A stretch of DNA of 21,444 nt from UHGV virus genome UHGV-1982450; one strand, given 5' to 3'. The stretch is from a virus. Under the pieces are notes generated by a model. That model saw nothing but the letters and a program-made list of their open reading frames with translations. It had not been told where the DNA came from and did not search any database. The position numbers and the translations under genes were made by a program. This document shows, in pieces, positions 219 to 21,444 of this stretch. Every line of letters starts with the position of its first letter. Positions within the stretch are counted from its first letter, which is position 1.

Positions 219-277
219 TGTACCGAACAAAATCCTTATCTTTACGAAAATCATGGCGCCTCAAGGCGCCATAATGC

Positions 278-556: not shown

Positions 557-558
557 GC

Positions 559-2118: not shown

Positions 2119-2182
2119 AAACCTCTTTCCTTCGTGCCTTTTGTATGGTAATTGGCTATTATGTTAAGTAAGTGCTTACACA

Positions 2183-3251: not shown

Positions 3252-3260
3252 GGATTTGCC

Positions 3261-3527
3261 ATGACGTTGACCGACAAACAAAAAGACATCATCAAAACCA
3301 TCAATTTAGGCCATGAGCGTGGGCATCTGCTCGATCTGGACGAGCTGCTTGAAGTGCTGCCGTACAAAACGACCAAACAGAGTATGCAGTTCTCTATCCG
3401 CGCACTGGTGAAAAAGGGGCTGGTGGAGAAAGGAATGTGCCGCCAGCGCGGTGATTCCGGCTACCACCGTCGCACGCTGGGACTGACCACGTTAGGTCGT
3501 GCCAGAGCCAAATTACTGGTGATGTAA
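3261..3527 (+). CDS. Hypothetical small protein, possible winged-helix DNA-binding protein
   Basis: Shine-Dalgarno AAGGA 6-7 nt upstream of the ATG. Helix-turn-wing pattern LVKKGLVEK; weak. Confidence 0.45.
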   Translation: MTLTDKQKDIIKTINLGHERGHLLDLDELLEVLPYKTTKQSMQFSIRALVKKGLVEKGMCRQRGDSGYHRRTLGLTTLGRARAKLLVM

Positions 3528-3548
3528 GTCGGTCTGGGAGCCAGTTTG

Positions 3549-3611
3549 AGAGCCTGCTTCCGTATATATAAATACTAAGTGACTTATTAAATATATACGG
3601 AAGCAGGCTCT
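3549..3611. repeat. Perfect 21-bp inverted repeat (arms 3549-3569 and 3591-3611) around a 21-nt AT-rich spacer; a degenerate copy lies at 11519-11570
   Basis: AGAGCCTGCTTCCGTATATAT ... ATATATACGGAAGCAGGCTCT read directly. Intergenic, upstream of the terminase small subunit gene. No downstream U-tract. Confidence 0.8.
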
Positions 3612-3641
3612 GAATACTCCCCAGCCCGGTTTTAAACACCC

Positions 3642-3682
3642 AGAAAACAAATTGGTTAGGCACTGAATTAAACAAGTTGTTT
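3642..3682. promoter_or_regulatory. Two adjacent copies of a dyad motif AGAAAACAA(A/G)TTG(T/G)TT (3642-3657 and 3668-3682), 41 bp upstream of terS
   Basis: AAACAA-N-TTGTTT palindrome; the same motif recurs upstream of the parA-like and DnaB-like genes. Confidence 0.4.
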
Positions 3683-3722
3683 AGGAGCGCAAGGATGCGC
3701 TCTGAGTGTTTTAGAGGGATCT

Positions 3723-4364
3723 ATGACTATAGAAAAAGACGAGAGCAAAACTCGCCTGACACCAGCTGAGTGGGCAGAAGCCGAAGCGAAGTGGACTTCC
3801 GGCGAATACACACTCTCCAAGCTGGAGGAAGAGTACGGCATTCGTCGTGAAACGCTCTCCAGACATTTCAAAAAGCGTGGATTAGAGAAAGGCGCGGACT
3901 CCGTTGGGAAGATGGTGCGCGAGTCGCTCAAATCCGACGCAGAGCTGCGTGCGAAGGCGCGTGCAGAGAAAATCGAAGAGCGCCGGACTCGTTACGACGA
4001 TTGGGCGTTCGCACTCGGTCGTATGGTGATGCATGAGGTGGCCATAGCCAAGAAGGACGGCAGGCCACTGGCAGCCATCGAAGATGACCTGAAGAGTCTC
4101 CAGCGTGCCAGCGGCACACTCGCTAAGTGCTTCGAAATATCGTCGAAAGCGCTCGGTATGGATCGCGTGGAGAACGAGGACGACGAAATCCCGAACCTGG
4201 TATTTGGCGAACTTACGCCTTCCCAGGTGGCGCAGCTGCGTAAGGAAGATGATGAGCCGGATCTGATTGATGACGATCTGCTTGAGTCACTCGAAGAGGA
4301 AGCACTGAGCGAAGCTGAGGGCGATTCTGAAGCGTCTGGTGATGAAAGTGATGGGAGCGTCTGA
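3723..4364 (+). CDS. terS: Terminase small subunit (putative)
   Basis: Lies immediately upstream of the terminase large subunit with a 2-nt gap. HTH-like N-terminus, central helical region and strongly acidic C-terminal tail. Shine-Dalgarno GAGGG before the ATG. The call rests mainly on position and architecture. Confidence 0.65.
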   Translation: MTIEKDESKTRLTPAEWAEAEAKWTSGEYTLSKLEEEYGIRRETLSRHFKKRGLEKGADSVGKMVRESLKSDAELRAKARAEKIEERRTRYDDWAFALGRMVMHEVAIAKKDGRPLAAIEDDLKSLQRASGTLAKCFEISSKALGMDRVENEDDEIPNLVFGELTPSQVAQLRKEDDEPDLIDDDLLESLEEEALSEAEGDSEASGDESDGSV

Positions 4365-4366
4365 CT

Positions 4367-5623
4367 ATGGCCATCCCGTCGTCTCTGAGTCTCGTACAGC
4401 TGCATTCTGGGCAGATGCAAGTCTTCCAGTCGCCACATCGTTTCAAAGTGGTGTGTGCGGGTCGACGCTGGGGTAAATCCCGGTTGTCGATCTCCACCAT
4501 CATCCGCGCGGCAGCCAAAGAGAAGAAGCAACGTGTCTGGTATGTCGCACCGACTTACCAGATGGCTCGCCAGATCTTGTGGGATGACCTGCAGGAAGTT
4601 CTGCCGCGCAAATGGGTTCGTAAGAAAAACGACACCACGATGACCATCGTGCTGAAGAACGGCTCTGAAATCGCGCTGAAAGGTGCGGATAAGCCCGATA
4701 CGCTTCGTGGTGTGGCACTGCACTTTGTGGTGCTCGATGAATTTCAGGATATGAAGCCTGACACCTGGTACAAGGTACTGCGTCCGACACTGTCCTCCAC
4801 CCGTGGCGGTGCGCTGATCATCGGTACGCCAAAAGGCTTCTCCGAGTTCCACAAGCTGTGGACTATCGGTCAGAACAAAGATTTGCAACGCAAGGGGCAG
4901 TGGAAGAGCTGGCAGTTCGTTACGGCCGATTCTCCGTTCGTACCGAGCGCGGAAATCGAAGCAGCGAAGAACGATATGGACCCTAAATCGTTCGCACAGG
5001 AATACCTGGCCAGCTTCGAAAACATGTCCGGACGCGTTTACTACCCGTTCGACCGCAATGTGCATGTGAAGCCACTCCAGTTCAATCCGAAACTGCCGAT
5101 CTGGGTTGGTCAGGACTTCAACATCGACCCTATGTCATCGGTCATCCTGCAACCGCAGCCAAATGGTGAACTGTGGGCTGTGGACGAATTGGTGTTGTTC
5201 TCTTCTAACACGGCTGAAGTGTGTGACGAGCTGGAGCGTCGATACTGGCGCTGGAAATCTCAGGTCACTATCTTTCCTGACCCGGCAGGTGCGTATCGCC
5301 AGCACGCACGCGGCGAATCTGACGTCGACATCTTCAAAGAGAAAGGTTTCCTTCGAGTCGATTATCCGAAGAAGCACCCGCCGATCGCAGACCGTGTTAA
5401 CGCAGTGAACCGCATGTTGATGAGTGCCTCGGGCGAAACCCGGTTGTACATCGATCCGAAGTGCAAACACCTCATCGACTCGCTGGAGAAGGTGATCTAC
5501 AAGCCAGGCTCACGCGATATGGATAAGACTGGCGGCATCGAACACAGTGCGGATGCGTTGGGTTATCCGGTTCATCGTAGGTATCCGGTGAAAAATCGTG
5601 TTATTCTTGGTGGATCTAGATAG
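4367..5623 (+). CDS. terL: Terminase large subunit (ATPase plus nuclease)
   Basis: Walker A-like VVCAGRRWGKS, Walker B-like FVVLDEFQD, and a C-terminal nuclease region with the VGQDFNIDPMS acidic motif. Confidence 0.9.
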   Translation: MAIPSSLSLVQLHSGQMQVFQSPHRFKVVCAGRRWGKSRLSISTIIRAAAKEKKQRVWYVAPTYQMARQILWDDLQEVLPRKWVRKKNDTTMTIVLKNGSEIALKGADKPDTLRGVALHFVVLDEFQDMKPDTWYKVLRPTLSSTRGGALIIGTPKGFSEFHKLWTIGQNKDLQRKGQWKSWQFVTADSPFVPSAEIEAAKNDMDPKSFAQEYLASFENMSGRVYYPFDRNVHVKPLQFNPKLPIWVGQDFNIDPMSSVILQPQPNGELWAVDELVLFSSNTAEVCDELERRYWRWKSQVTIFPDPAGAYRQHARGESDVDIFKEKGFLRVDYPKKHPPIADRVNAVNRMLMSASGETRLYIDPKCKHLIDSLEKVIYKPGSRDMDKTGGIEHSADALGYPVHRRYPVKNRVILGGSR

Positions 5624-5638
5624 GTAAGTACTTACCTA
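5621..5638. promoter_or_regulatory. 18-bp perfect palindrome TAGGTAAGTACTTACCTA spanning the terL stop codon, 19 nt before the portal start
   Basis: Read directly. A related sequence TAGATAAGTAAGTACATACCTA occurs at 11654-11675 upstream of the ORF starting at 11689. Confidence 0.4.
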
Positions 5639-5656
5639 AGTGGAAAGGAAAATCAA

Positions 5657-7231
5657 ATGGAATTGACTGACAAGCAAATCAAAGACCTTGTGGCACGACG
5701 CCACCCTGAATATGAGAAGAAAAAAGAACATTGGGACTTCCTCGCCAGCACCTACGCTGGCGGGCGTGCCTGGTTCAACGACAATATCTTCCGTTACTTC
5801 AAAGAGGGCGATCAGGAGTTCAAAGAGCGCCTGGAACGCGCTTATCGCTTCAACCATACGCGCGAAGTGGTAAACCTCATCAACAAATACCTCTTCAAAG
5901 AGGTCATTCACCGCAACACTGATGAAGCACCGGAGCAGATCCGCAATTTCTGGAAGCGAGCCACGCGCCAGAACGCCTCCATCGATGCGTTTATGGCGGC
6001 TATCGATCTGCAATCATCCATTTATGGCCGTATCTGGGTTGTCGTGGATAGCACGATGAACGTCGATGTTGAGTCTGTTGCAGACGAGAAGAAAAATGAT
6101 GCGCGTGCCTACGCTTACTGGATTTCGCCGCAGCAGCTGCTTGATGTTGCCTGGGATGAAGACGGCAATATGTTGTGGGCGCTGATTGTTGAAATCGCGC
6201 GCGACGACGAAGATCCGTTCACTTCAACCGGGCAGGAATACCAGCGTTACCGTCTGTGGACGCAAAACGAGTGGTATCTGTTCCGTGAAGAAGTGAAGAA
6301 GGGTTCCGGAAATAGCGGTCGCCGTCAGGCCAAAGTCGTTCTGGAGGATAGCGGCCAGCATAATCTGGGCGTGGTGCCGGTGTTCCCGGTGGATTGCATT
6401 GGTGAAAGCGAGTCTCCGTATTTTAGCCCGTCGTTGATTGACGATATTGCCTATCTTGATCGCGCCGTGGCCAACTACCTGTCGAACCTTGACGCGATTA
6501 TTCAGGATCAGACATTCAGCCAGTTAGCGATTCCGGTTCAGTCCCTGCTGCCGGGCGATGAAAACCACACCAAAGTGCTCGAAATGGGGACAAAACGTGT
6601 CTTCACCTTCGATTCTGAGAGCGGTAATCAGCCATTCTATCTGTCTCCAGACCCGAAACAGGCTCAGATGATCATCACCACGATTAAGACGGTGATTAAT
6701 GAGATCTACCATTCCGTTGGTGTGGCTGGTGAGCGAACCAAGCAGGATAACGCGCAGGGTATCGACAACTCTTCGGGGGCAGCGAAGATGTACGACTTCC
6801 AACGTATTAACAGTCTGTTGGTGACAAAAGCAGAGCGCCTCGAAAGGGCAGAACGCCAAATGATGGAGTTGGCTGCGAAATGGATGGGCATCGAATTGGA
6901 TGAAGACCACTCTCTGATCGCTTACCCGGAGAGTTTCGATATTCGTGGTCTGACTGACGAATTTGCCGTCGCTGAGAAATTGTCGCTGTTACAGGCGCCT
7001 GATTCTGTACGTCGTCATCAGATGGAAATGCTCATAGAAAAGATCTTCCCGAATATTTCCGAAGCGATGCAAAAGGAATTTAAAAAAGATCTCTTGAAAT
7101 TTCCTCTAAAAAATGCTCCTGGCGCCCTTGAAAATAAGTCAGTACTTACTTATGATTGCGATACAGTCCAAGAAAGCGGACAAGATCAACCCCGAGGGAA
7201 TGGGGACTCATCTACTCAAGAGACCGAGTGA
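5657..7231 (+). CDS. Portal protein (putative)
   Basis: 524-aa protein immediately downstream of terL with a strong Shine-Dalgarno (AAAGGAAAA). Size and acidic C-terminus are typical of portals. Called mainly on synteny. Confidence 0.7.
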   Translation: MELTDKQIKDLVARRHPEYEKKKEHWDFLASTYAGGRAWFNDNIFRYFKEGDQEFKERLERAYRFNHTREVVNLINKYLFKEVIHRNTDEAPEQIRNFWKRATRQNASIDAFMAAIDLQSSIYGRIWVVVDSTMNVDVESVADEKKNDARAYAYWISPQQLLDVAWDEDGNMLWALIVEIARDDEDPFTSTGQEYQRYRLWTQNEWYLFREEVKKGSGNSGRRQAKVVLEDSGQHNLGVVPVFPVDCIGESESPYFSPSLIDDIAYLDRAVANYLSNLDAIIQDQTFSQLAIPVQSLLPGDENHTKVLEMGTKRVFTFDSESGNQPFYLSPDPKQAQMIITTIKTVINEIYHSVGVAGERTKQDNAQGIDNSSGAAKMYDFQRINSLLVTKAERLERAERQMMELAAKWMGIELDEDHSLIAYPESFDIRGLTDEFAVAEKLSLLQAPDSVRRHQMEMLIEKIFPNISEAMQKEFKKDLLKFPLKNAPGALENKSVLTYDCDTVQESGQDQPRGNGDSSTQETE

Positions 7232-7253: not shown

Positions 7254-8021
7254 ATGAATCTGTGGCAAATGCTTATGGCCCGTCGTGGCCTGATGGATGT
7301 AGCCGAAGCGCATGAGCGCGGCGGCGCTGGTGGCGGTGCTCCTGCTGGAGACAATGAGCAGAGCATTCAAGACCCAGGCAAACAGGGCGAGCAAAAAGAG
7401 CAACCGAAGGGTGACGACGATGAGTATGCCGGTATGACTCAGGAAGAGTTGCTGGCAGAACTGCGTAAGTCTAAGAAAGCCGGTGCTGATCTGTTGAAAG
7501 AGAACATGAAGCGCAAGGAGAAAGAGCGCACATTGGCCGATCAGCTGGCTCAGTACGGTGATATTGACCCGACGCGTGCTCGTCAGCTTCTCGAAGCTGA
7601 ACAAGCCGCAGAAACCGCACGTCGGGAGGCGGAGCAGGCTGAACTGGAACGTCGTGGTGAGTTCGATGCTGTGAAAAAGCAGATGATCGAAGCACACCAG
7701 ACTGAACTGGCACAGCGCGACGAACGCTACTCCGCTCTGGAGAGCGAGAACGCCGCACTGAAGGCTCAACTGGTCGAAATGACTGTTGGTGTTTCCTTCA
7801 GCAGTTCTGCTTTCCTGCGTGACAAAGTTCTGATGACTCCGGCTATTGGCCTTGCACAAATTGCTGACGTTATGCCTCAAGTTTCTGCCGCAATGGATAA
7901 AGCGCAAGGCAATATCTCCAGTGGAGATACGGTACGCATCATCTTTGGCGTAGCTACCATTCTTGTGGCAGCATTCATTGCCTGGTCCCAGGTTCGCAAG
8001 CACCAGAAAGGATTAGTGTAA
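7254..8021 (+). CDS. Coiled-coil protein with a C-terminal transmembrane anchor (possibly scaffold- or lysis-related; function unknown)
   Basis: Long charged heptad-rich helical region (EAEQAAETARREAEQAELERR) and a C-terminal hydrophobic helix IIFGVATILVAAFIAW. Confidence 0.5.
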   Translation: MNLWQMLMARRGLMDVAEAHERGGAGGGAPAGDNEQSIQDPGKQGEQKEQPKGDDDEYAGMTQEELLAELRKSKKAGADLLKENMKRKEKERTLADQLAQYGDIDPTRARQLLEAEQAAETARREAEQAELERRGEFDAVKKQMIEAHQTELAQRDERYSALESENAALKAQLVEMTVGVSFSSSAFLRDKVLMTPAIGLAQIADVMPQVSAAMDKAQGNISSGDTVRIIFGVATILVAAFIAWSQVRKHQKGLV

Positions 8022-8443: not shown

Positions 8444-8965
8444 TTATTCTTCGAACAATTTTTCGATAGATTTTGTTGGATAGAACAAAGAACGATCGTT
8501 GTTACCAACCAGCTGGATAAAGCCCAAACTTTTATAAAACGCCCTGGCTTTATCGTTCAACGCCTCAACGAAAAGCCCATGAATGCCTACCGCAAGAGAT
8601 GCATTGTACACAACACGCATTGCGTGAGTTACAAGCATTGAGCCAAGCCCCTGACCTTGAAGAGATTTGTCCAAAGCCAGTCTGCCTAAAGTGATACTTG
8701 GGACATGCCGATAAGGCACTTTCTTTTGCTGACTCTTTGAAGGTAAGGTTTCTTTCTCAAAGCAGCTGCCTGACAAAGTGTAATAACCTAATACCTTTGG
8801 TATTTCTTCTTTAGTGCAAAGCACATAAGCGCGAAGAATTTTTCCTTCATGCTGTCTTTTTAAGTGGTTGGTCAAAAATGCGTTTAGCGACTCTTCGCCG
8901 CAATCAAAACCGTTTAGATCATAATCTTTCTCTCCAGAGAAAATCTCGATCGTCGTATTGCTCAC
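8444..8965 (-). CDS. GNAT-family acetyltransferase toxin of the TacT/AtaT/KacT type (aminoacyl-tRNA acetylating toxin family)
   Basis: Family-typical motifs FDCG, LGRLALDKSLQGQGLG and YKSLGF. Lies immediately downstream of, and co-oriented with, a DUF1778-type antitoxin gene. Confidence 0.9.
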   Translation of the reverse strand: MSNTTIEIFSGEKDYDLNGFDCGEESLNAFLTNHLKRQHEGKILRAYVLCTKEEIPKVLGYYTLSGSCFEKETLPSKSQQKKVPYRHVPSITLGRLALDKSLQGQGLGSMLVTHAMRVVYNASLAVGIHGLFVEALNDKARAFYKSLGFIQLVGNNDRSLFYPTKSIEKLFEE

Positions 8966-8972
8966 GAGTAAA

Positions 8973-9242
8973 TTACTCCATGCTTTTCAGACGATTGGCA
9001 GCTCGTTTCAGCTTGTCGTTCGGTGCCGGAGGATTGCTTATAGCATCCATAACCAGATTCCAGGACTCTTCACTTAGAACCAGTCTACGGTGTTGCTCTA
9101 TCACCTTCACGGCACGTTCGGATGCACTGCTAACCATGAACTGGGTAATGCTCTGGTTAGACATTGCGGCAGCTTCCTCGATGATGCTTTTATCGTCATC
9201 GGTTAATCTCAAATCGATGCGCTGCTTTTTCAGTGCGGACAT
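8973..9242 (-). CDS. DUF1778-family antitoxin (TacA-like RHH antitoxin)
   Basis: 89-aa protein whose N-terminal RHH region (RIDLRLTDDDKSIIEEAAAMSNQSITQFMV) and C-terminal toxin-binding helix match the DUF1778 pattern. Separated by 7 nt from the GNAT toxin gene. Confidence 0.85.
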   Translation of the reverse strand: MSALKKQRIDLRLTDDDKSIIEEAAAMSNQSITQFMVSSASERAVKVIEQHRRLVLSEESWNLVMDAISNPPAPNDKLKRAANRLKSME

Positions 9243-10638: not shown

Positions 10639-11406
10639 TTATGCCGCGCTAACACTATGTTCATTCCTAACCACCCCAACCTTCACAAAAGGGCTGCCGT
10701 AGCTTGGTGGCTTCTTGATTAATTTGCCTACATACAGTTTTCTAATATGCTCATCGGCTATTCTGCCAACAAATTCATAACGTTTTGTGTCGGGGCCAAG
10801 AGCTATATCCCTTGTAAAGTACTGCTGAGAACCGGCTTTGACCCAGCATTCAATCTGATAAACTTCCATTATCAGGCCCCCATATGTAGCGTAGGCATAT
10901 TTGAGATTCTCGTCTCTTGGAACCTTTGCCCATACGCCACGCGTAGCTTCATATAATGCCAGAGCGGACATTCCTGACTTGTAGGTGCTGTTTAGCAGGA
11001 AGGCAAGACCGGCGTGCTCAGGAGCAATTTCAGTTTCCTCTTGCAGCACTAAGTGATGGTAGGCGTCCAGTGATATTCTGCCCATCATGGAACCACTTCC
11101 TCGTACCTTATTCGTAAGCTCTCCGACCCCCATAAGGTCGATGCATGTCGCCTCAACAAGTTTGGCTGTGGTTTCATCCATACCATGACGAAGAATATCT
11201 ATGCCTAATTTTTTATTAGCCAAAAGTTCTTTGATCCGCATGGATTTGGGAGAGTCATCGGGATACTTGATGTGATCGAGACAACGAGTCGATTTGCCTT
11301 TTCCTATGTAAAACGGTCTTTTCATCTTGTCTTCTGTATCATAGAGACAGTAAACATAGTATTTAGCCTTATCCAATGATCTCGCGTATACCGATAAATC
11401 GTCCAT
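10639..11406 (-). CDS. GIY-YIG nuclease domain protein with an uncharacterised C-terminal domain of about 150 aa
   Basis: N-terminal GIY-YIG motif YYVYCLYD ... PFYIGKGKSTRCLDH. The C-terminal half has no motif I recognise. Confidence 0.7.
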   Translation of the reverse strand: MDDLSVYARSLDKAKYYVYCLYDTEDKMKRPFYIGKGKSTRCLDHIKYPDDSPKSMRIKELLANKKLGIDILRHGMDETTAKLVEATCIDLMGVGELTNKVRGSGSMMGRISLDAYHHLVLQEETEIAPEHAGLAFLLNSTYKSGMSALALYEATRGVWAKVPRDENLKYAYATYGGLIMEVYQIECWVKAGSQQYFTRDIALGPDTKRYEFVGRIADEHIRKLYVGKLIKKPPSYGSPFVKVGVVRNEHSVSAA

Positions 11407-13875: not shown

Positions 13876-15087
13876 TTGCCAAAACCACAAAAGAAAAAAC
13901 ACATGAGCCTTTATGGTATTCAAATACCGAGGCTTATCAAGATATTACCTGCAAAAAATAGGGGTAAGAACGTGAGCGACTTGAAAGAATTACTGACCGA
14001 GCTGGATTTTGAGCAATGGCTCGATATGGAAGGGATCATCTACCGTCGTGGTGGAGTCAGTACTCGCGGACGAGAGGTCAACATTAAAGAGTGTCCGGTA
14101 TGCGGCAGCTCAAACTGGAAGGTTTATTTCAACCTGACCAGTGGTGTCGGCAAATGCTTTGCAGGCGATCATCCCGAAGAGATTCAGTTCAACAAGCTGG
14201 TCTTCCTAAAGCATTACAGCGGCAAATCTCGTCGCGATTTTGAAGAGTACGTCCAGAACGCGCTGATCTCACAAGGATGGGCACCGAAGAAGGAAGAGAT
14301 CGTACTGGCCAGCAAGGTTGAACTGGAAGGACCGGTAGCTCTCCCGCGCCATTACGAACTCCCCATTGACGGTCGTCTTCCTGATTATCTGGTGGAGCGC
14401 CAGATTTCCCCGGAGCTGGCCAAATACTTTGATCTGCGTTACTGCGTCGAAGGCAAGCACGCATACGTCGATCCGTACACAGACCAGGTCAAAGGACAGG
14501 TATTCGATATGCGAATACTGATACCGGTTTACGATCTGGATGGCGTGATGAAGACCTTCCAGGGTCGTGACATTACCGGTGCAGCAGAACGCCGGTATCT
14601 GTTCCCCATGCAGCTGCCAGCATCGGGTAAATTTCTCTACAACGGCCACAATGCAGTCGGCAAACAGACTGTAGTTGTCTGTGAGGGGGCGTTCGATGTT
14701 ATGGGGGTTAAACGAGCTATTTTTGATGAAGAAACATTACGCGATTACGTGGAACCGATAGGAACGTTCGGGATGCATCTATCTGGTAACACCACTCAGG
14801 ATGCAGAAGATCAGTTGGGCGCGTTCCTGACGCTCAAGGCGCGTGGATTACGTAATGTGATTATGATGTGGGATAGTGAAAAGCAAGCTATACGCAACAC
14901 GATGGCCGCAGCCAGGCGACTGACTAGTATCGGTCTTAATGTCAAAGTAGCGTGTTTGGGCGAGGAAGGACTCGACCCCGGCGATGCGACACCGGGGCAG
15001 ATTATCAAAGCCTACTATTGCGCAAAACCTTATTCACGACAGCTTGAACTTTTAAGCAAGGTAAAAGGCATAGCTGCATTAGTTTGA
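13876..15087 (+). CDS. DNA primase (zinc-ribbon plus TOPRIM); the true start is probably downstream of 13876
   Basis: Zinc-ribbon CPVCGSS ... KCFAGDH resembling the T7 gp4-type primase zinc-binding domain, and a TOPRIM-like acidic motif VVVCEGAFDVMG. Alternative starts at 13903 (ATG) or 13972 (GTG with a GGGG Shine-Dalgarno). Confidence 0.8.
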   Translation: MPKPQKKKHMSLYGIQIPRLIKILPAKNRGKNVSDLKELLTELDFEQWLDMEGIIYRRGGVSTRGREVNIKECPVCGSSNWKVYFNLTSGVGKCFAGDHPEEIQFNKLVFLKHYSGKSRRDFEEYVQNALISQGWAPKKEEIVLASKVELEGPVALPRHYELPIDGRLPDYLVERQISPELAKYFDLRYCVEGKHAYVDPYTDQVKGQVFDMRILIPVYDLDGVMKTFQGRDITGAAERRYLFPMQLPASGKFLYNGHNAVGKQTVVVCEGAFDVMGVKRAIFDEETLRDYVEPIGTFGMHLSGNTTQDAEDQLGAFLTLKARGLRNVIMMWDSEKQAIRNTMAAARRLTSIGLNVKVACLGEEGLDPGDATPGQIIKAYYCAKPYSRQLELLSKVKGIAALV

Positions 15088-15229
15088 ACCAGTATTATCA
15101 ACGGCTCGGTAGTGTCTAAATTATCCGTGGCGATTCAGTTCTTTTCGTGGGTATGTCTACTTATAGATATTTGTTTGTGTTGTGTTCTTGGTCGAATACA
15201 ATTAATCTGCATGGTTAATGGACTAAAAA

Positions 15230-16216
15230 TTGTCGTTCTTTGGGGGAGAAGTGAACATTGTAGATGCTCTTGTTCTCAAGAAGTTAATGAGCGTTGGTGA
15301 TGAAACTGTTCTGTCAATCTTAAAGTTTTCAGCGTACAGCGGAGTGTCAACACTCGAAGAACTGGTAGTTAACTCCTCCAATCTGAAAATCTCAAATGGT
15401 AAATCTCGAGCAACTCTCGAAAGTTTCTTCGACGCTGCGAACTTCCAGGCTCTCAGGGACGAAGTAAAAACAGAGATTGATTCGTTCAAAAATAAAGGAG
15501 TTGAGATTGTTATCTTCGGTTCGAAAAACTATCCAATTTCGTTATATGATCTCCCGAAACCTCCACCCTTTCTTTACTGTAAAGGCAATCTAAATCTCTT
15601 AGAGAATAGGCTTTCATTAGCTGTTGTAGGAACTCGTGAAAACACCCCCAAGGGTGAAACCCTAACGATTAAAACTATTCAAAAGTTTGCGACTTATGGC
15701 TTCACGATAGTCAGTGGACTTGCACTGGGTATCGATACAATTGCTCATCGCGCGGCATTAGATGCCAAAACACCAACGATTTCTGTTCTTGTCGATGTGG
15801 AGTCTATTTCTCCCGCAAGTAATCGGGAACTCGCTAAGGAAATATTGGACGAGGGCGGACTTCTAGTTGCAGAGAATGCACCAGGAACCAAAGCAATACC
15901 TGCGTTCTTTGCTAAGCGAGACAGGATACAAGCAGGTTTATCTACTGCCGTCTTTGCTATTGAAACTTCGATAGATGGTGGGACGATGCACGCAGTCAAA
16001 TCTGCTATCTCTATGATGCGTCCTGTCTTCGTTCCTGACGTACATAAAGCTAAGTATCCAGATCTTACTATCAAGGCAATTTCAGGAACTCAACAGCTAG
16101 TTAACGAAGGGAGGGCGATACCATACACGAGCGAATCTTATGAAGATATTCGTCTTCAATTAGAAGATATCGCGAGTTCATTTGGGTCGTTGAAAGCAAA
16201 AGGTGGCCTGCTGTGA
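15230..16216 (+). CDS. DprA/Smf-like (SLOG-type Rossmann) protein; candidate antitoxin or partner of the downstream PRTase fusion protein
   Basis: DprA signature LAVVGTR ... GFTIVSGLALGIDTIAHRAAL ... FAKRDRIQAGLSTAVFAIETSIDGGTMHA. Its stop overlaps the start of the next gene (GTGA). Start may be TTG at 15230 or GTG at 15251 (GGGGGAG Shine-Dalgarno). Confidence 0.85.
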   Translation: MSFFGGEVNIVDALVLKKLMSVGDETVLSILKFSAYSGVSTLEELVVNSSNLKISNGKSRATLESFFDAANFQALRDEVKTEIDSFKNKGVEIVIFGSKNYPISLYDLPKPPPFLYCKGNLNLLENRLSLAVVGTRENTPKGETLTIKTIQKFATYGFTIVSGLALGIDTIAHRAALDAKTPTISVLVDVESISPASNRELAKEILDEGGLLVAENAPGTKAIPAFFAKRDRIQAGLSTAVFAIETSIDGGTMHAVKSAISMMRPVFVPDVHKAKYPDLTIKAISGTQQLVNEGRAIPYTSESYEDIRLQLEDIASSFGSLKAKGGLL

Positions 16217-19200
16217 TAAAGGTCATCGTCCTCGATCTTGATGACACGCTTATTGATACATCAAGCCTCGAACCACTTCGGTTAGCTGGCCGATGGAGAG
16301 ACATACCCAGGTACTTTAATGGTTGTGTCATCAATCAGGACGTTGTCGGCCTTGTTACAACGGCTCGGTCGGTTGGAATCAAGGTTGCTATCTTCTCGAA
16401 TGCGCCTTCGAACTACGTTCAGGGGCTACTCAAACACTTCAGTATCACTGTTGATTATGTAGTAGCCTACCATGATGTAACGCAGCATAAGCCGAGCCCT
16501 GAGGGCGTTACTCGTATTCTCGAGTACTTCGGTGTTAGCGCCGACGAGTCAATTTATTTAGGAGATAGTAACCTAGATCGAGACGCTGCTTCCAATGCAG
16601 GAGTTGAGTTTTTCTCAGTAGATTGGGGTTCTGCCTCGGAGATCGATTCGTCACATAAGGGAATAAGCGGTCTCTCCGAGCTTATTGGAAAAAACTCGAC
16701 GCGGAGCTCCGCAAGAACTGGACGTTCTGAGTTAATACAATCTGGGAATAAACTTCATCTGGGATTCTATTTAGATGGTATCAAACAGGAAGTTTGGTCT
16801 TTCAAGGATAACAAGAATACTTCTGTTCGCCGCTGGGTTAACAAGACTGTTGAGCTAGCTTCTTCATTCCCAGCCATAGATATAGTTGTTCGAGCGTTAG
16901 GTCACGCTGAGCTTAGGGCTGAAGATGGCGATAAAGCATTAGATACCTTGGGCAAATCGCTGGCTGTTGCTTTAGGGGCTTCTTACCAACCTAAGATATT
17001 AGAGAAAGATCACGTATTAGATAAATCGACTAATTGCACTGCAGCACAAAGACTCCACCAGGTCAGAGGTGCCTATAAAGCCGATTTTGATTCAATAGAA
17101 GCTAATTCAAATCCGACATTTCTGATCATTGACGACGTATTAACTTCGGGGGCTACAACTGATGAGATAACACGCTGTCTATCTCAAGCTTTTCCGAATT
17201 CAAGTATTTACATTTTTACGTTGGTTAAAACTCTCTATAGATTGGAGCTATGCACTGACAGCCAAGAACAACAACACAATAACCAACTGTTTTCAGATTT
17301 GTACAACCCAATCATCGACTCGCTGGCGGACGAAAGTGAACTATCTAGACATGTCAGGTCGAAGTCTAGTAGCAGGCTTGTAAGCAAGAAGTTTTCTGCT
17401 AACTACGCGAGAACCAACCATAACTTCATTTTCCACAATCTTCTCCAGTATTCTATCTCGTCTGAAGCGGCGTCTGGACAGCTATTTGCAGCAATTCAAG
17501 TTCTTAAGAATATGCTTCAGAGAGGGAAGCCAACAATAGCCTCGCGGAAGCTGAGGAAGGCATTTGGCATTGAACTGGATCAGAACGTTCTTAATACACC
17601 AGCTCAGGCTCTTGTGTCAGATAAGCCGGTTTTTTGGAATAGATTGATTCGAGGCCACAAACAGTCAGGAAACTACCCAGCGAAAAGGTTTTTTGATGAG
17701 CTGATACCGAAGTATTTCGGTAAGTACATTTTTGTAAAACAACTAATGCTCCCTGAAGTCCAGATTTACGATATGACTCAGGTCTACGTTGAACAATTCC
17801 AGAACCGACAGGTAGATTTTTACATTCCTCAAGTTGGTTTAATTATTGAGATAGACGGTCAGCAGCACCAAAATTCTCAGCATTTAGATGAAATGAGGGA
17901 TGCGTTTACCGAAAGCCTGGGACTGAAGACTGTTCGATTCACTGTTCAAGAACTGGCATCTGAGAACCAGTCATTTATCAGTAAGATAAATTCGATTATT
18001 TCTCACATTCAGATCGTTGATGGTCTAGAGCGAAATGGTGTCCTAACGCCTCCTAATGGTATTTCTTTATTGAATTACCAAGAGGCTTACGAAAATGGAG
18101 TCGATGTTACTGACTCGCGATTGAGGCTGACCTCGGCGTTGCGTTTCCAGATACTGTTATTAGAGCTTCTTGAACGCGGTCAGATCAGACTAGGGGAGTT
18201 GAAAAAACTATTCATAGTCAATCGTGATGGAACTGATTTTGCTGAAGCGGCACTGGACGACCTGAACGATTTGTTATCGAATATCTTTCGTCTCATCGGC
18301 ATTGAAGAAAAGCGAATTGAGGTTGCGCTGATCGAATCAGATGAGCTTCCGAGCGAACGGTCTGGTGAAAATATATTCATCGACTTCAGCTTACTGGAGC
18401 GTTATGACGATTCCTTTCAAGTTAACCAAGACGTCATATATTCACGTACGGATTACTTCGATTTCTATCGAAACTTCGAAGATTCTGATGCTGTTTCAAT
18501 AGAAACCAGTCAATTGATTGACTATGACTTTTTTGAGCTTTCATGTAGTAACCCCATTACCTACAAGCTAGATCTTAGCCCAGGCAGCGAGCAGAGAGAG
18601 TCGCTGAGATACTTCCTCAGCAACCTGTTTCTACCATACCTAGAGGATGTAGATTTCAGGGAAGGGCAGGTTGGTATCATAGGATCTGCACTTTCGAAAA
18701 ACGGCACAATAGGATTGCTGCCTACAGGTTCGGGTAAGTCGATTTGTTACCAGCTGTCTGCGGTCCTGCAACCAGCCGTTAGCTTTGTCGTGTGCCCGAT
18801 AAAAAGTTTGATGTATGACCAGAAAGCAGATTTGGATAGCATCGGCTTCACTCGAAGCAATTTTATTACAAGTGATTTGAAGGCAGGAGAGAAGGCCAAA
18901 GTTCAGAGAGATTTCGGACGTGGTAAGTACTTCTTCGTTTTTATATCGCCTGAGCGATTCCAAACCCATGCGTTTAGAAAAGAGATGTTGGCTATCGGAC
19001 TAGATCTCTCATTTGCCTACGCGGTGATCGATGAAGCTCACTGTTTGTCTGAGTGGGGACATGATTTCAGGACTTCTTATCTGAACCTGGCAAATACAAT
19101 CGAACGGTTTGCTCCCAGTGCGAGTTATATAGGTCTAACGGCAACAGCATCAGTTAACGTCCTAAAGGATATTCAAACAGAGTTTGATATCCCAGATGAT

Positions 19201-20889
19201 TTTGTCCGTACCCCCATGGACTTCACTCGCGAGGAACTATCATTCCACGTCATTGACGATAAAGGCCGTAAAGGTGATGCAGTCGTCGAGCTTGTTTCTG
19301 AAATGGAGGGTAAATGGAATTCAGATGGGGAAGACGGCAATAAGGCGGGGATCATATTCACTTCTACCGTCAACGGAGCTAAGGGGTGTTATAGCTTAGC
19401 GGGCCGAATATCAACACTCTTGAAGATGGATGTTAGATATTTTTCGGGGTCGGCTCCGAAAATGGGTGGATTGCAGGGAGAGGCTTTCGATAGATATAAG
19501 CGCCAAGTTCAAGACGATTTTAAAGAAAATAAATACCGCCTACTTACTGCCACTAAGGCATTCGGAATGGGCGTGAATAAGGGAAATATTGCCTATACGG
19601 TTCACTTCGGAATACCTGGGTCGATGGAGGCCTTGTATCAGGAAGCTGGCAGGGCAGGGCGAGATAAAAAACTATTCAAGGAAGTACCCGCAGATTGCTA
19701 TGTGCTTCTCACAAAAGAGCCCAATTCAGCTATTCTCGACAAGATTTGGGACGCTAGCACGAACGTCAAAGATCTGAAGGAGTACGTGAAGTCATTGAGT
19801 CGCGATAGCGACCTGAACACAAATCTATTCCTGATGACAAACGGCTTGGGCACAATCAATGATGAGTTCAAGTTGATGGCAAATGTATACGAATTTTTTA
19901 AGTACAATCAGGAACACAACACGGTGACCATTACTGCCAGGCAGTTTGGTACGGAAAAGTTTAAATTGGAAAAGGCTATCTACCGCCTTTCTCAATTAGG
20001 TATTGTCTCTGACTGGGTAATCGAAGACTTTTTTAATGGAACGCTCTCTGTCGAGTTCCAGTGCCTATCGGAAGAAGGCCTGGAAAAGAAAATTGAGCAT
20101 ACCGTCAGAAAGTATGATCCTGAGTTTAAGCTCGCTGATGTGTTCAGTAGTGATAACCAGTACTACAAAATTCTCTGCGACAAGCTGAGAAAAGGGTCTA
20201 TCGATAAATCGCAATTTATCTTTCTTGTTCTTTTACTTTGGTCCTATGACCATTTTGTCTACAACCGCCGCCAGTCACAGAAGAACGTTTATGAACACTG
20301 TAGTTTATTTGCTGAAGGCAGGATGGATGGTAAAGAATTTAAGGAGAAGTTAGAGGGTTATTTCAGACACGACAAGTCGAGCCAACTTTTGCTCAATATG
20401 GCTGAGAATTCTGTGTCGGTGAAGTTATGGCCATCAGTTTTTTTTGAAACTGATGAAGAAGAGGGCTCGGAACATTTAGTAAGCAGCGAGAAGATGACGA
20501 TCCTACGAGGTCAGATTTCTCGATTCCTAGAGTCATACAAAGATAATGCATTCTTGAACTACTTGAGTGGTGTGCTGCGACTAGCTTCCGATGAGTTTGA
20601 TGATGCAGATGGAGAGCGAAGAATGGCATCGTCATTTGATCGGTTGATCAGTGATAATAGGGATGAAGCACTAGAGCTGGTCCGAAAAACTATGCAGTTA
20701 AAACCAATATTTTCTGAAAATGCGCGAAGTCGCTTTGCTCGTTTGGTCCATGAGAAATTTGAAGATTTGGATTTTCTTGGGGAAGTAAATGAAGAGCTAG
20801 GAGATCCGTTCTCCTATCACACTTTGTTAGCTCCACTGGCAATTAGACTTGAAAAACTTACCAGCCTATACAAGGGGATTAATTGGTGA
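16213..20889 (+). CDS. 1558-aa multidomain protein: N-terminal HAD-like phosphatase, ComF-like PRTase, Vsr/DUF559-like endonuclease-fold module, RecQ-family SF2 helicase core, and an uncharacterised C-terminal region of about 390 aa
   Basis: HAD motifs DLDDTL, FSNA, HKP, GDSNLDRD (aa 1-140). PRTase PRPP loop FLIIDDVLTSGATT (nt 17119-17160). Vsr-like pattern DFYIPQVGLIIEIDGQQH ... TVRF (about nt 17710-17997). RecQ motifs LLPTGSGKS, VVCPIKSLMYDQ, VIDEAHCLSEWGHDFR, LTATA, ATKAFGMGVNK, YQEAGRAGRD (about nt 18610-19692). Confidence 0.9.
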   Translation: MIKVIVLDLDDTLIDTSSLEPLRLAGRWRDIPRYFNGCVINQDVVGLVTTARSVGIKVAIFSNAPSNYVQGLLKHFSITVDYVVAYHDVTQHKPSPEGVTRILEYFGVSADESIYLGDSNLDRDAASNAGVEFFSVDWGSASEIDSSHKGISGLSELIGKNSTRSSARTGRSELIQSGNKLHLGFYLDGIKQEVWSFKDNKNTSVRRWVNKTVELASSFPAIDIVVRALGHAELRAEDGDKALDTLGKSLAVALGASYQPKILEKDHVLDKSTNCTAAQRLHQVRGAYKADFDSIEANSNPTFLIIDDVLTSGATTDEITRCLSQAFPNSSIYIFTLVKTLYRLELCTDSQEQQHNNQLFSDLYNPIIDSLADESELSRHVRSKSSSRLVSKKFSANYARTNHNFIFHNLLQYSISSEAASGQLFAAIQVLKNMLQRGKPTIASRKLRKAFGIELDQNVLNTPAQALVSDKPVFWNRLIRGHKQSGNYPAKRFFDELIPKYFGKYIFVKQLMLPEVQIYDMTQVYVEQFQNRQVDFYIPQVGLIIEIDGQQHQNSQHLDEMRDAFTESLGLKTVRFTVQELASENQSFISKINSIISHIQIVDGLERNGVLTPPNGISLLNYQEAYENGVDVTDSRLRLTSALRFQILLLELLERGQIRLGELKKLFIVNRDGTDFAEAALDDLNDLLSNIFRLIGIEEKRIEVALIESDELPSERSGENIFIDFSLLERYDDSFQVNQDVIYSRTDYFDFYRNFEDSDAVSIETSQLIDYDFFELSCSNPITYKLDLSPGSEQRESLRYFLSNLFLPYLEDVDFREGQVGIIGSALSKNGTIGLLPTGSGKSICYQLSAVLQPAVSFVVCPIKSLMYDQKADLDSIGFTRSNFITSDLKAGEKAKVQRDFGRGKYFFVFISPERFQTHAFRKEMLAIGLDLSFAYAVIDEAHCLSEWGHDFRTSYLNLANTIERFAPSASYIGLTATASVNVLKDIQTEFDIPDDFVRTPMDFTREELSFHVIDDKGRKGDAVVELVSEMEGKWNSDGEDGNKAGIIFTSTVNGAKGCYSLAGRISTLLKMDVRYFSGSAPKMGGLQGEAFDRYKRQVQDDFKENKYRLLTATKAFGMGVNKGNIAYTVHFGIPGSMEALYQEAGRAGRDKKLFKEVPADCYVLLTKEPNSAILDKIWDASTNVKDLKEYVKSLSRDSDLNTNLFLMTNGLGTINDEFKLMANVYEFFKYNQEHNTVTITARQFGTEKFKLEKAIYRLSQLGIVSDWVIEDFFNGTLSVEFQCLSEEGLEKKIEHTVRKYDPEFKLADVFSSDNQYYKILCDKLRKGSIDKSQFIFLVLLLWSYDHFVYNRRQSQKNVYEHCSLFAEGRMDGKEFKEKLEGYFRHDKSSQLLLNMAENSVSVKLWPSVFFETDEEEGSEHLVSSEKMTILRGQISRFLESYKDNAFLNYLSGVLRLASDEFDDADGERRMASSFDRLISDNRDEALELVRKTMQLKPIFSENARSRFARLVHEKFEDLDFLGEVNEELGDPFSYHTLLAPLAIRLEKLTSLYKGINW

Positions 20890-21374
20890 ATGACATACAG
20901 AAACTACACCGGGTAATCGATTCACTCGAAGAGCAATCGACGCAAGTGGCACAGTTTAATGGCCTGTTGAGCGCCGTCAGCGATGCAAGAACTGAGATAG
21001 AGGCTGCGAAATCAACGCTCGTAAATCTAGCTTATGAACACGCTGAATTGTTTACGAAGAACTCGAATAAATTTGAAGAGTTTGACGGCCGCCTTATGTC
21101 ACTAAATGATCTTCTAGGCCAGATCAAAGATGAACAGTTGAAACTAAGGCGTGAGGTTGCAGCCTTGAAGTTTGTAACACCAGAGCAGTTTGAACAAGGC
21201 TGCACAGCAATTGATAGCCGCATTGCTAAACAATTAGCGGAATTGAAAAGCAAGTTAGAGGCGGCGGCGGAGTCTCAGCAAAGATCGATAAGCGGGCTAC
21301 GAACCATAGTTGTTTTAGGTATCTTGGTGTTGGCTGGAGGTGTCGGATTCTTGGCTATGAATATTTTTCTTTAA
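20883..21374 (+). CDS. Coiled-coil protein with a C-terminal transmembrane anchor; possible third component of the DprA-PRTase-helicase locus
   Basis: Start (TTG 20883 or GTG 20886) overlaps the stop of the 1558-aa gene. Heptad-rich helical sequence and a C-terminal TM helix IVVLGILVLAGGVGFLAMNIF. Confidence 0.5.
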   Translation: MVNDIQKLHRVIDSLEEQSTQVAQFNGLLSAVSDARTEIEAAKSTLVNLAYEHAELFTKNSNKFEEFDGRLMSLNDLLGQIKDEQLKLRREVAALKFVTPEQFEQGCTAIDSRIAKQLAELKSKLEAAAESQQRSISGLRTIVVLGILVLAGGVGFLAMNIFL

Positions 21375-21444
21375 TTTTCAGATTGTCATTCAGTTTTTAG
21401 TTGTAATCAATAAGTTGGAATACAGAGGCTTTTTCCTCTGCTGT

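What the first reader, a model, noticed from the sequence alone, without database searches (positions are those of the whole stretch)
20883..21374. Tail-anchored coiled-coil protein overlapping the end of the giant gene; possible membrane component
The 163-aa ORF starts inside the last codons of the 1558-aa gene (coupled translation). It is predicted to be a long coiled coil ending in a single C-terminal TM helix. A second protein of the same unusual topology (7254-8021) sits after the portal gene. A membrane-anchored partner could be a downstream effector or localisation factor for the system.
Basis: inference. Interest (0 to 1): 0.45.

Follow-up and report, generated by a model that had tools for sequence, protein, structure and literature searches.

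The report
Membrane-anchored partner of a defence helicase
The small gene is real: it encodes a rod-shaped protein with a membrane anchor at its very end, and in 70 of 70 loci from many bacterial phyla it follows one family of RecQ-like helicase-nuclease genes, so it is an undescribed core subunit of a probable anti-phage or anti-plasmid system whose role as a membrane tether is inferred, not shown.

Summary
Window 20883/20886-21374 (+) encodes a 162/163-aa protein that overlaps the stop codon of the 1558-aa gene by 4 or 7 nt. It is all-helical (AF2 pLDDT 95) and ends in one transmembrane (TM) helix with no tail beyond it.

It belongs to a real family: 70 clusters at 50% identity. The first 35 residues are strongly conserved, the stalk varies in length, and the anchor is conserved only in hydrophobicity.

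Its partner is the helicase, not the DprA-PRTase part. In 70 of 70 evaluable genome loci a tail-anchored ORF directly follows the DUF559+RecQ-like helicase (background 5 of 374). This includes two-gene "short-form" loci with no detectable DprA or HAD/PRTase domain. The window holds the long form: a ShosTA-like pair (DprA-like gene; HAD-PRTase) fused onto that helicase module. This 6.3-kb three-gene cassette moves between phage-plasmids, SXT/R391 conjugative elements (ICEs), IncF plasmids and chromosomal defence islands.

The "second protein of the same topology" (7254-8021) is unrelated. It is a chimeric ORF created by a deletion in the phage backbone.

Most likely role (inferred, about 0.5): an inner-membrane tether or adaptor for the helicase-nuclease. 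No paper or library I searched describes this component. No defence function has been shown.

The parts
15146..21426 (+). Mobile three-gene cassette: the segment shared at about 97% identity with unrelated replicons.
   Evidence: Megablast covers query positions 147-6427 of window 15000-21444 in E. coli chromosomes and in Klebsiella and Raoultella plasmids. About 200 related phage-plasmids match only the primase end. The right boundary lies 52 nt after the small gene's stop codon.
15230..16216 (+). DprA-like gene of ShosA/PsyrA type, 328 aa. Its stop codon overlaps the giant gene's GTG start by 4 nt.
   Evidence: Pfam DNA_processg_A 1.9e-53. PADLOC ShosA 1.5e-67 and PsyrA 1.7e-28. It scores below the NCBIfam dprA equivalog cut-off, 159.7 against 191.15.
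16213..20889 (+). 1558-aa fusion protein. Domains: HAD phosphatase (about aa 1-165); ComF/ShosT-like PRTase (about aa 165-400); DUF559/Vsr-like endonuclease (aa 513-600); RecQ-family helicase core (aa 813-1166); helical C-terminal domain (aa 1200-1558).
   Evidence: Pfam HAD_2, DUF559, DEAD and Helicase_C. PADLOC model PDLC02868, labelled DpdF, 3.2e-112; PsyrT 8e-61; ShosT 1.4e-7. NCBIfam recQ_fam 223.6 against a cut-off of 219.8; GntX/ComF 1.4e-7. Catalytic motifs are invariant in alignment A1. AF2 and Foldseek on a short-form homologue give a RecQ core followed by an all-helical C-terminal domain ending in a long helix.
20886..21374 (+). The finding: a tail-anchored helical protein of 162 aa from the GTG start. 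An alternative TTG start at 20883 gives 163 aa.
   Evidence: PHROGs family phrog_28492, unknown function, 6e-110. No real Pfam, NCBIfam or PADLOC family.
20886..20993 (+). Conserved N-terminal head, aa 1-36: MNDIxKLxxVIxSLEEQxxxVxEFNGxL. Proposed docking surface for the helicase.
   Evidence: Highest information content in the family, 2.7-2.9 bits per column against 1.2-1.7 for the stalk. L7, L14, E15, F24 and L28 are nearly invariant and G26 is invariant.
21171..21191 (+). FVTPEQF motif, aa 96-102. It sits at the only break between the two long helices.
   Evidence: Second conservation peak, 2.4 bits. The AF2 helix break is at residues 94-98. The motif is present once or twice in homologues, with copies often 22 aa apart.
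21303..21371 (+). C-terminal transmembrane anchor, aa 140-162, preceded by R139, with no residues beyond it.
   Evidence: Hydropathy. Family-wide TM statistics and positive charge on the inside. Hydrophobicity is conserved but the sequence is not.

Best explanation
The 162-aa protein is an obligate structural subunit of a RecQ-like helicase / Vsr-type (DUF559) nuclease module.

Proposed mechanism:
- It inserts into the inner membrane by its C-terminal helix, with the N-terminus in the cytoplasm.
- It projects a variable-length helical stalk, probably oligomeric, into the cytoplasm.
- Its conserved N-terminal head binds the helicase, probably at the helical C-terminal domain. Coupled translation from the overlapping stop and start codons would place the two proteins together as they are made.
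- This tethers the helicase-nuclease to the membrane. The tether would confine the enzyme to the zone where foreign DNA enters, and away from most of the chromosome.

In the window this two-gene core is fused and coupled to a ShosTA-like pair, with HAD-PRTase at the N-terminus of the giant protein and a DprA-like gene upstream. Together they form a three-gene cassette carried as cargo by phage-plasmids, ICEs and defence islands.

What is shown: the gene is real; its topology; the conservation pattern; strict synteny with the helicase; the modular split between short and long forms; cassette mobility.

What is inferred: physical binding, membrane tethering, defence function and mechanism.
For: Synteny:
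- 70 of 70 evaluable loci across Pseudomonadota, Bacteroidota, Bacillota, Cyanobacteriota, Nitrospirota and others have a 155-379-aa tail-anchored ORF starting within -70 to +130 nt of the helicase stop codon.
- 51 of these are recognised by the family HMM. The background rate of this topology is 5 of 374 ORFs.
- Distant small-protein homologues, at 24-39% identity, also follow the helicase with 4-7 nt overlaps.

Modularity:
- Short-form loci have no detectable DprA or HAD/PRTase domain, and in the ten neighbouring upstream ORFs sampled from eight short-form loci the genes are unrelated to each other. The partnership is therefore with the helicase.

Anchor rather than enzyme:
- There is no domain other than helices.
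- The TM helix is conserved only in hydrophobicity, with a median 2-aa tail and positive charge on the inside.
- Stalk length varies through segment duplication: 154-246 aa among the 55 aligned family members, a 62-aa tandem duplication in P0001, and 22-aa motif spacing.
- Sequence constraint concentrates in the N-terminal 35 residues.
- The helicase ends in a conserved helical domain and a terminal long helix.

Mobility and context:
- The cassette moves as one unit with the small gene at its 3' edge.
- It sits next to type I restriction-modification and MZA genes, in the variable region between traN and ssb-bet-exo of SXT/R391-type ICEs, and near Cas3 or NERD genes.
Against: - No experiment or structure of a complex exists.
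- Defence activity of this cassette has never been shown. Only its relatives ShosTA, PsyrTA and DprA-PRTase have been tested.
- dN/dS of 0.39-0.65 shows weaker constraint than on the enzyme cores.
- The predicted stalk is long: about 140 helical residues, roughly 20 nm if extended (my estimate). A simple "hold it at the membrane" picture may be too naive.
- A sensing or effector role would leave the same genomic signature.
Confidence: 0.5

Rival explanations
1. Membrane sensor or signal transducer. The anchored coiled coil detects an envelope event, such as phage DNA injection, membrane depolarisation or conjugative pore formation. It passes the signal down the stalk to switch on the helicase-nuclease and, in the long form, the PRTase toxin.
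For: The synteny and topology evidence is the same as for the tether model. The conserved FVTPEQF hinge between two long helices could act as a conformational switch. Known membrane-anchored defence systems such as Zorya and Kiwa sense at the envelope; that comparison comes from my background knowledge and was not tested here.
Against: The median tail beyond the TM helix is only 2 residues and there is no periplasmic domain, so there is little to sense with outside the bilayer. The TM sequence is poorly conserved.
Confidence: 0.2
2. Abortive-infection effector. Once the helicase module detects foreign DNA, the small protein oligomerises through its coiled coil and glycine-rich TM helix, and permeabilises the inner membrane.
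For: Single-pass TM proteins are common effectors in defence operons (background knowledge). The TM helix is rich in small residues, LGILVLAGGVGFLA, which could favour helix packing.
Against: The cassette already carries two candidate effectors: the DUF559 nuclease and, in the long form, the PRTase. The TM is the least sequence-conserved part and conservation concentrates in the cytoplasmic head. A variable-length stalk fits a spacer better than a pore former.
Confidence: 0.12
3. Not defence. The cassette serves its mobile element in DNA transactions, for example processing incoming or outgoing single-stranded DNA at the membrane. This would resemble ComFA, ComFC and DprA of natural transformation, with the small protein anchoring the complex near a DNA channel.
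For: The PRTase domain's nearest curated family is GntX/ComF. DprA, a ComFC-like PRTase and a helicase recapitulate the cytoplasmic transformation set, a parallel already noted for RqlHI in PMC5512222. The carriers are ICEs, plasmids and phage-plasmids.
Against: Short-form loci with no detectable DprA or PRTase occur on ordinary chromosomes among unrelated genes. The DprA-like protein scores as ShosA (1.5e-67) and fails the DprA equivalog cut-off. The cassette sits in variable cargo sites and defence islands, and is absent from about 200 sister plasmids. It is therefore dispensable for the element.
Confidence: 0.1

Closest known systems
ShosTA (Shosta) toxin-antitoxin defence system
   Same: The upstream 328-aa gene matches ShosA (1.5e-67) and has the same length as ShosA. 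The first 400 or so residues of the giant protein have ShosT's layout, a Rossmann-type N-terminal domain followed by a PRTase with an intact PRPP loop (PMC12961424; PMC11961720).
   Different: ShosT is a free-standing protein of about 424 aa in a two-gene system. Here it is fused to an additional stretch of about 1150 aa carrying the DUF559 nuclease, RecQ helicase and C-terminal domain, and a third, membrane-anchored gene follows. Neither ShosTA paper mentions a membrane component.
PsyrTA / RqlHI (RecQ-like helicase-PRTase toxin with a DprA-like antitoxin)
   Same: A RecQ-family helicase and a PRTase share one polypeptide and pair with a DprA-like protein. PADLOC gives PsyrT 8e-61 and PsyrA 1.7e-28. 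In RqlHI the genes overlap and the proteins interact (PMC4670107).
   Different: Domain order is reversed: in RqlH the helicase is N-terminal and the PRTase C-terminal, and the protein is about 690 aa. RqlH has no HAD domain, no DUF559 nuclease, no large helical C-terminal domain and no third gene. The word 'transmembrane' does not occur in the RqlHI paper.
DprA-PRTase system from the P2 prophage hotspot (Rousset et al. 2022)
   Same: A DprA-like gene next to a PRTase gene, carried as cargo in a variable region of a phage-related element, with protection against T7 and lambda shown experimentally (PMC9122126).
   Different: It is a two-gene system with no helicase, nuclease or membrane protein.
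DpdF helicase of the Dpd (7-deazaguanine DNA modification) system, as labelled in PADLOC
   Same: PADLOC model PDLC02868, labelled DpdF, aligns almost end to end with the helicase part in both long and short forms (3e-112 to 3e-124).
   Different: The protein fails the curated NCBIfam DpdF equivalog, 139 bits against a cut-off of 550. No dpd genes appear in the neighbourhoods I inspected. The label therefore reflects helicase similarity, not membership.
Membrane-anchored defence assemblies such as Zorya (ZorAB coiled-coil tail recruiting the ZorC/ZorD helicase-nuclease) and Kiwa (KwaA/KwaB)
   Same: An analogy only: a membrane-embedded component with a long cytoplasmic helical extension, paired with a DNA-acting effector. 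This rests on my background knowledge and was not tested.
   Different: There is no homology. Only weak hits to ZorA, LeoA and JetC of the kind long coiled coils give, E between 1e-3 and 1e-5. The anchor here is a single C-terminal helix, not a MotAB-like motor or a multi-pass sensor.

Membership tests
Tail-anchored membrane protein (a topological class) | A single TM helix at the extreme C-terminus, a cytoplasmic N-terminal domain and no signal peptide. | tested here: met
   The only hydrophobic segment is aa 140-162 of 162. Across the family the median tail after the TM is 2 aa and the flank before it carries a net +1.9 charge. The N-terminus is polar and helical. All of this is prediction; there is no experimental topology.
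The small-protein family itself (phrog_28492; 70 clusters at 50% identity) | The N-terminal head motif xDIxKLxxVIxxLExQ...EFNG, a helical stalk, a C-terminal TM helix, and a position directly downstream of the DUF559-RecQ helicase. | tested here: met
ShosTA | A DprA-like antitoxin of the ShosA family. | tested here: met
   PADLOC ShosA PDLC03961, 1.5e-67, covering residues 40-283.
ShosTA | A stand-alone two-domain PRTase toxin of about 424 aa in a two-gene operon. | tested here: not met
   The PRTase region gives only a weak ShosT hit (1.4e-7, aa 254-358). It is the N-terminal quarter of a 1558-aa fusion protein, and a third gene is present.
PsyrTA / RqlHI | A RecQ-like helicase with a C-terminal PRTase domain, plus a DprA-like partner, as two genes. 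| tested here: not met
   The helicase and DprA-like parts match (PsyrT 8e-61, PsyrA 1.7e-28). However, the PRTase is N-terminal, extra HAD, DUF559 and C-terminal domains are present, and there is a third gene.
DpdF (Dpd system) | Passes the curated DpdF equivalog model and lies in a dpd gene cluster. | tested here: not met
   NF041063 scores 139.4 bits against a cut-off of 550. No dpd neighbours were seen.
RecQ family helicase | RecQ-type SF2 core, including the DEAHCxSxWGHDFR motif. | tested here: met
   TIGR00614 recQ_fam scores 223.6 against a cut-off of 219.8. The motif is invariant in A1. The top Foldseek hits are RecQ, RECQL5 and BLM. It is not a RecQ equivalog: 240 against a cut-off of 640.
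Canonical DprA (natural transformation) | Passes the dprA equivalog model. | tested here: not met
   TIGR00732 scores 159.7 against a cut-off of 191.15.
Anti-phage defence system (functional class) | Demonstrated protection against phage or other mobile DNA. | not testable with these tools
   Only context is available: defence islands, an ICE variable region, and cargo sites of phage-plasmids.

The most novel reading that the evidence does not exclude
A widespread, unnamed two-component immune module in which a RecQ-like helicase / Vsr-type nuclease is held on a variable-length coiled-coil stalk anchored in the inner membrane, so that it intercepts DNA as it enters the cell by phage injection, conjugation or transformation. 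In the long form a ShosTA-like DprA/PRTase pair is bolted on, giving a membrane-tethered counterpart of the ComFA-ComFC-DprA uptake machinery that works against incoming DNA rather than for it.
Probability: 0.25. Interest if true: 0.8.

Novelty: new variant of a known kind. Interest (0 to 1): 0.55.

Why it matters
ShosTA, PsyrTA and DprA-PRTase are studied as two-gene cytoplasmic toxin-antitoxin defences. This cassette shows that the same parts also occur fused to a helicase-nuclease whose invariable partner is a membrane anchor.

- That helicase-plus-anchor pair exists on its own in many phyla. No library or paper I searched names it.
- If the tether model holds, it adds a simple and genetically tractable example to the emerging idea that some defences act at the membrane where foreign DNA enters. 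It would also offer one way a nuclease-helicase without a modification partner could avoid the host chromosome.
- The stalk-length variation from segment duplication gives a ready-made experimental handle.
- The cassette travels on phage-plasmids, SXT/R391-type ICEs and IncF plasmids, so it may influence phage susceptibility or plasmid uptake in clinical Enterobacteriaceae and Vibrio.

Tried and rejected
1. AF2 on a fused sequence (helicase C-terminal domain, linker, small protein) with a paired alignment (A4), to test docking.
2. Foldseek of the small-protein model against the PDB gave no match with E below 6. A profile search of PDB sequences gave only generic coiled-coil hits with E near 1e-3. 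Neither is informative about function.
The viral-contig scan with A5 returned only the same phage-plasmid.
4. Searches of the phage collection found nothing, either as DNA for the cassette or as protein for the small gene.
5. PADLOC, Pfam and NCBIfam hits for the small protein (JetC, LeoA, ZorA, Rad50, CCDC90-like) are weak and look like generic coiled-coil matches, so I rejected them as homology.
6. I considered and rejected the idea that 7254-8021 is a paralogous partner; it is a deletion chimera.
7. I looked for a conserved intrinsic terminator after the gene. The simple scan finds none there. The hairpin at window 21403-21420 straddles the cassette/backbone junction and is not shared by other copies.
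8. Seven literature searches found no description of a third gene or TM partner for this helicase. The library does not cover most subscription-journal papers.
Full report
**1. What is at the coordinates**

The + strand has an ORF from TTG 20883 or GTG 20886 to TAA 21372-21374. The 1558-aa gene ends with TGA at 20887-20889, so the two genes overlap by 7 or 4 nt (…TTGGTGA…). An AAGGGG Shine-Dalgarno sequence lies at 20872-20877, 8 nt upstream of the GTG. The gene callers behind the public records use the GTG start, giving 162 aa. Some homologues begin MVND…, which corresponds to the TTG position. By ORF coordinates the upstream DprA-like gene overlaps the giant gene in the same way, with its stop codon ending at 16216 and the GTG start at 16213. 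The three genes therefore look like one translationally coupled operon.

**2. Topology and fold**

- The only hydrophobic segment is the last 23 residues, T140-L162, preceded by R139. The Kyte-Doolittle 19-residue maximum is 2.47.
- AlphaFold2 with a 55-sequence alignment gives pLDDT 95.4 and two long helices, 2-93 and 99-161. The break falls at the FVTPEQ motif, and the TM segment is the end of the second helix.
- Foldseek finds nothing in the PDB. A profile search of PDB sequences returns only weak coiled-coil matches such as HA2, spike HR1, YbgF and adhesin stalks.
- "Tail-anchored helical rod" is therefore confirmed as far as prediction can go.

**3. It is a real, conserved protein**

- The word-indexed search found 56 relatives at 70-93% identity in E. 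coli, Klebsiella, Vibrio, Aeromonas, Shewanella, Alteromonas and Marinomonas.
- The exhaustive HMMER search found 70 clusters at 50% identity. Those of full length (about 155-245 aa) match from residue 1.
- In the alignment, information content peaks at residues 1-35 (2.7-2.9 bits) and at the FVTPEQF motif (2.4 bits). The stalk and TM helix score 1.2-1.8 bits.
- The TM helix is conserved in hydrophobicity only. Its median length is 19 aa, the median tail after it is 2 aa, and 91% of sequences carry net positive charge just before it. This fits an N-terminus-in, tail-anchored protein.
- Length varies through inserted or duplicated stalk segments. TPEQF-like motifs recur at 22-aa spacing, and one close relative (P0001) has a clean 62-aa tandem duplication.
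- dN/dS against five close copies is 0.39-0.65. In the three copies where the giant gene was also compared, the small gene gives 0.39-0.53 and the giant gene 0.15-0.21, with 0.05-0.12 for its helicase core. The small protein is constrained, but less than the enzymes.

**4. Who its partner is**

I scanned one genome per GTDB species with an alignment of the giant protein (A1) and kept 79 loci.

- An HMM of the small family hit the ORF directly downstream of the helicase in 51 of the 70 evaluable loci.
- A topology test (155-379 aa, one TM helix at the extreme C-terminus, start within -70 to +130 nt of the helicase stop) was positive in 69 of 70 evaluable loci. The background rate was 5 of 374 other ORFs of 110-400 aa.
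- The single exception, L067, is a frameshifted helicase with the tail-anchored ORF still behind it. The true figure is therefore 70 of 70.
- Going the other way, three distant small-protein homologues (39%, 28% and 24% identity) each follow a giant helicase gene with a 4-7 nt overlap.

The loci fall into two architectures.

- **Long form** (about 1540-1590 aa: HAD, PRTase, DUF559, RecQ, C-terminal domain). It has a DprA-like gene upstream wherever the upstream sequence is available. It occurs mainly in Pseudomonadota, with copies in Desulfopila, Chloroherpeton and Campylobacterota metagenome-assembled genomes (MAGs).
- **Short form** (about 1100-1200 aa: DUF559, RecQ, C-terminal domain). No HAD or PRTase domain was detected, and no DprA-like gene was detected by phmmer within 4.5 kb upstream. 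The ten neighbouring upstream ORFs I sampled from eight such loci are unrelated to each other, among them NamZ, DUF2130, GNAT, Cas3, NERD and an ABC permease. This form occurs in Bacteroidota, Bacillota, Cyanobacteriota, Nitrospirota and others.

The small protein therefore belongs to the helicase module. DprA belongs with the HAD-PRTase addition.

**5. What the long form is made of**

- The 328-aa upstream gene scores as ShosA (1.5e-67) and more weakly as PsyrA.
- Residues 1-400 of the giant protein mirror ShosT: a Rossmann-type N-terminal domain plus a PRTase (PMC12961424). PADLOC ShosT scores 1.4e-7, and the PRPP loop DDVxTSGxT is invariant.
- The remaining residues match a PADLOC model labelled DpdF almost end to end. 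However, they fail the curated DpdF equivalog (139 against 550) while passing the RecQ-family subfamily model (223.6 against 219.8).
- DUF559/Vsr-type catalytic residues and the RecQ motifs are invariant across 41-68% identical homologues.
- An AF2 model of a short-form homologue (pLDDT 88.5, pTM 0.86) shows a RecQ core. This is followed by an all-helical C-terminal domain ending in a long terminal helix.
- The window's cassette thus reads as ShosA + [ShosT::nuclease-helicase] + anchor.

**6. Genomic context and mobility**

- The window is an E. coli SSU5/pHCM2-like phage-plasmid, 99.9% identical to NZ_CP086388 and NZ_CP067400.
- About 200 sister plasmids match only the end of the primase gene. 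In two of them a Phd/Doc toxin-antitoxin pair and a fimbrial operon occupy the site.
- The 6.28-kb segment 15146-21426 recurs at about 97% identity in other settings:
  - an E. coli chromosomal island between a type I restriction-modification system and MZA;
  - a Klebsiella IncFIB/IncHI1B plasmid, between insertion sequences.
- The same three-gene cassette, with the small protein at 80-90% identity, also occurs in the variable region between traN and ssb-bet-exo of SXT/R391-type ICEs in Vibrio and Pseudoalteromanas-type hosts, and in Marinomonas, Advenella and Maribrevibacterium.
- The shared DNA ends 52 nt after the small gene's stop codon, so the small gene is the last element of the mobile unit.
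- An earlier paper merely noted "dprA and accessory gene recQ" in ICEValHN396 (PMC4857294).
- Decayed copies are common. They include IS1 or IS5 insertions in the giant gene, frameshifted helicases and an in-frame DprA::small-protein deletion product, P0052.

**7. The "second protein of the same topology"**

ORF 7254-8021 has a hydrophobic C-terminal helix but no similarity to the small protein (E = 0.11).

- Its first 150-200 residues match a scaffold-like DUF6651 family (phrog_7069, phrog_206) that is present in about 800 plasmids.
- In its last 62 residues, 59 are identical to the C-terminus of a 230-aa "membrane protein". In the intact relative pLAO18 that gene lies after the tail-fibre assembly genes.
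- Only five records share the junction.
- The ORF is therefore a by-product of a deletion. By inference, the deletion removed the head-tail module lying between the two genes. It is not a component of the system.

**8. Mechanism**

*Shown:* an obligatory, translationally linked pairing of a helicase-nuclease with a tail-anchored helical protein. That protein's constraint lies in a cytoplasmic N-terminal head, and its stalk length is free to vary.

*Inferred (confidence about 0.5):* the head docks on the helicase, probably on its conserved helical C-terminal domain. The C-terminal helix fixes the complex to the inner membrane. This would place the enzyme where foreign DNA enters and limit its access to the chromosome.

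*Rivals:*
- a sensor or transducer (0.2);
- a membrane-disrupting effector (0.12), disfavoured because the TM helix is the least conserved part and the cassette already carries a nuclease and a PRTase;
- a role in the carrier element's own DNA handling (0.1), prompted by the resemblance to ComFA, ComFC and DprA noted in PMC5512222 and by the GntX/ComF hit.

I could not test binding.

**9. Comparison with known systems**

The closest known systems are ShosTA, PsyrTA/RqlHI and the P2-hotspot DprA-PRTase system. None is reported to have a membrane component. The cassette fails the architecture criteria of each, so I do not file it as a member of any.

PADLOC 2023, Pfam, NCBIfam and PHROGs have no functional family for the small protein. 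Seven literature searches found no description of it.

I rate it a new variant of a known kind: a PsyrTA/ShosTA-related defence candidate with an additional, strictly conserved membrane-anchored subunit. The stand-alone helicase-plus-anchor pair is an apparently unnamed module. Defence activity itself remains unproven.

Noticed in passing
window 7254-8021 (+), junction near 7845: Chimeric ORF created by a deletion. The N-terminal part, about 195 aa, is a scaffold-like DUF6651 protein. It is joined to the last 62 aa of a membrane protein that lies after the tail-fibre assembly genes in the intact relative pLAO18. By inference the deletion removed the head-tail genes lying between the two, so this phage-plasmid lineage (5 records) is probably defective as a phage.
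   Followed up: yes
window 10639-11406 (-): A GIY-YIG protein matching the PADLOC PD-T4-3 defence model (1.3e-23) sits in the conserved backbone. It is also present in cassette-free relatives, annotated as hypothetical.
   Followed up: partly
window 8444-8965 (-) and 8973-9242 (-): A GNAT acetyltransferase with a DUF1778/TacA1-like partner. By domain content this looks like a TacAT-type toxin-antitoxin pair in the plasmid backbone.
   Followed up: no
NZ_CP086388.1 and NZ_MG516909.1 (hits H1/H2); NZ_JBSAOW010000004.1 (H37); L015, L040, L048, L076, L086, L067, L004: Many copies of the giant helicase gene are disrupted. I saw IS1 or IS5 insertions, a split HAD domain, and internal or C-terminal frameshifts. 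This suggests frequent inactivation, perhaps because the gene is costly or toxic.
   Followed up: partly
P0052 (E. coli, 243 aa); P0001 (224 aa): P0052 is an in-frame fusion of DprA-like residues 1-159 to small-protein residues 78-162, so the whole giant gene has been deleted. P0001 is a small-protein variant with a 62-aa tandem duplication of the stalk segment that contains the FVTPDQF motif.
   Followed up: partly
small-protein family (alignment A2); window 21171-21191: The TPEQF-like motif recurs at 22-aa spacing in longer family members. This suggests a 22-residue structural repeat in the stalk.
   Followed up: partly
L092 6545-6955 and 8549-8995; L009 1072-1503: SSB genes lie immediately beside the cassette in two unrelated metagenomic contigs, and a reverse-transcriptase-domain gene sits beside it in L092. 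This is notable because ShosTA escape mutations map to phage SSB (PMC12961424), but the adjacency may be coincidence.
   Followed up: no
L094 and L095, 7222-12827 (cassette-free relatives): In two sister phage-plasmids, the position after the primase gene that holds the cassette here carries a Phd/Doc toxin-antitoxin pair and a yehD-type fimbrial operon instead. This site is a variable cargo region.
   Followed up: partly
L001 17915-19237 and 20439-20987 (downstream of the window end): On the same contig, a DNA ligase domain gene (DNA_ligase_A_M) and a Tn3-family transposase lie downstream of the cassette.
   Followed up: no
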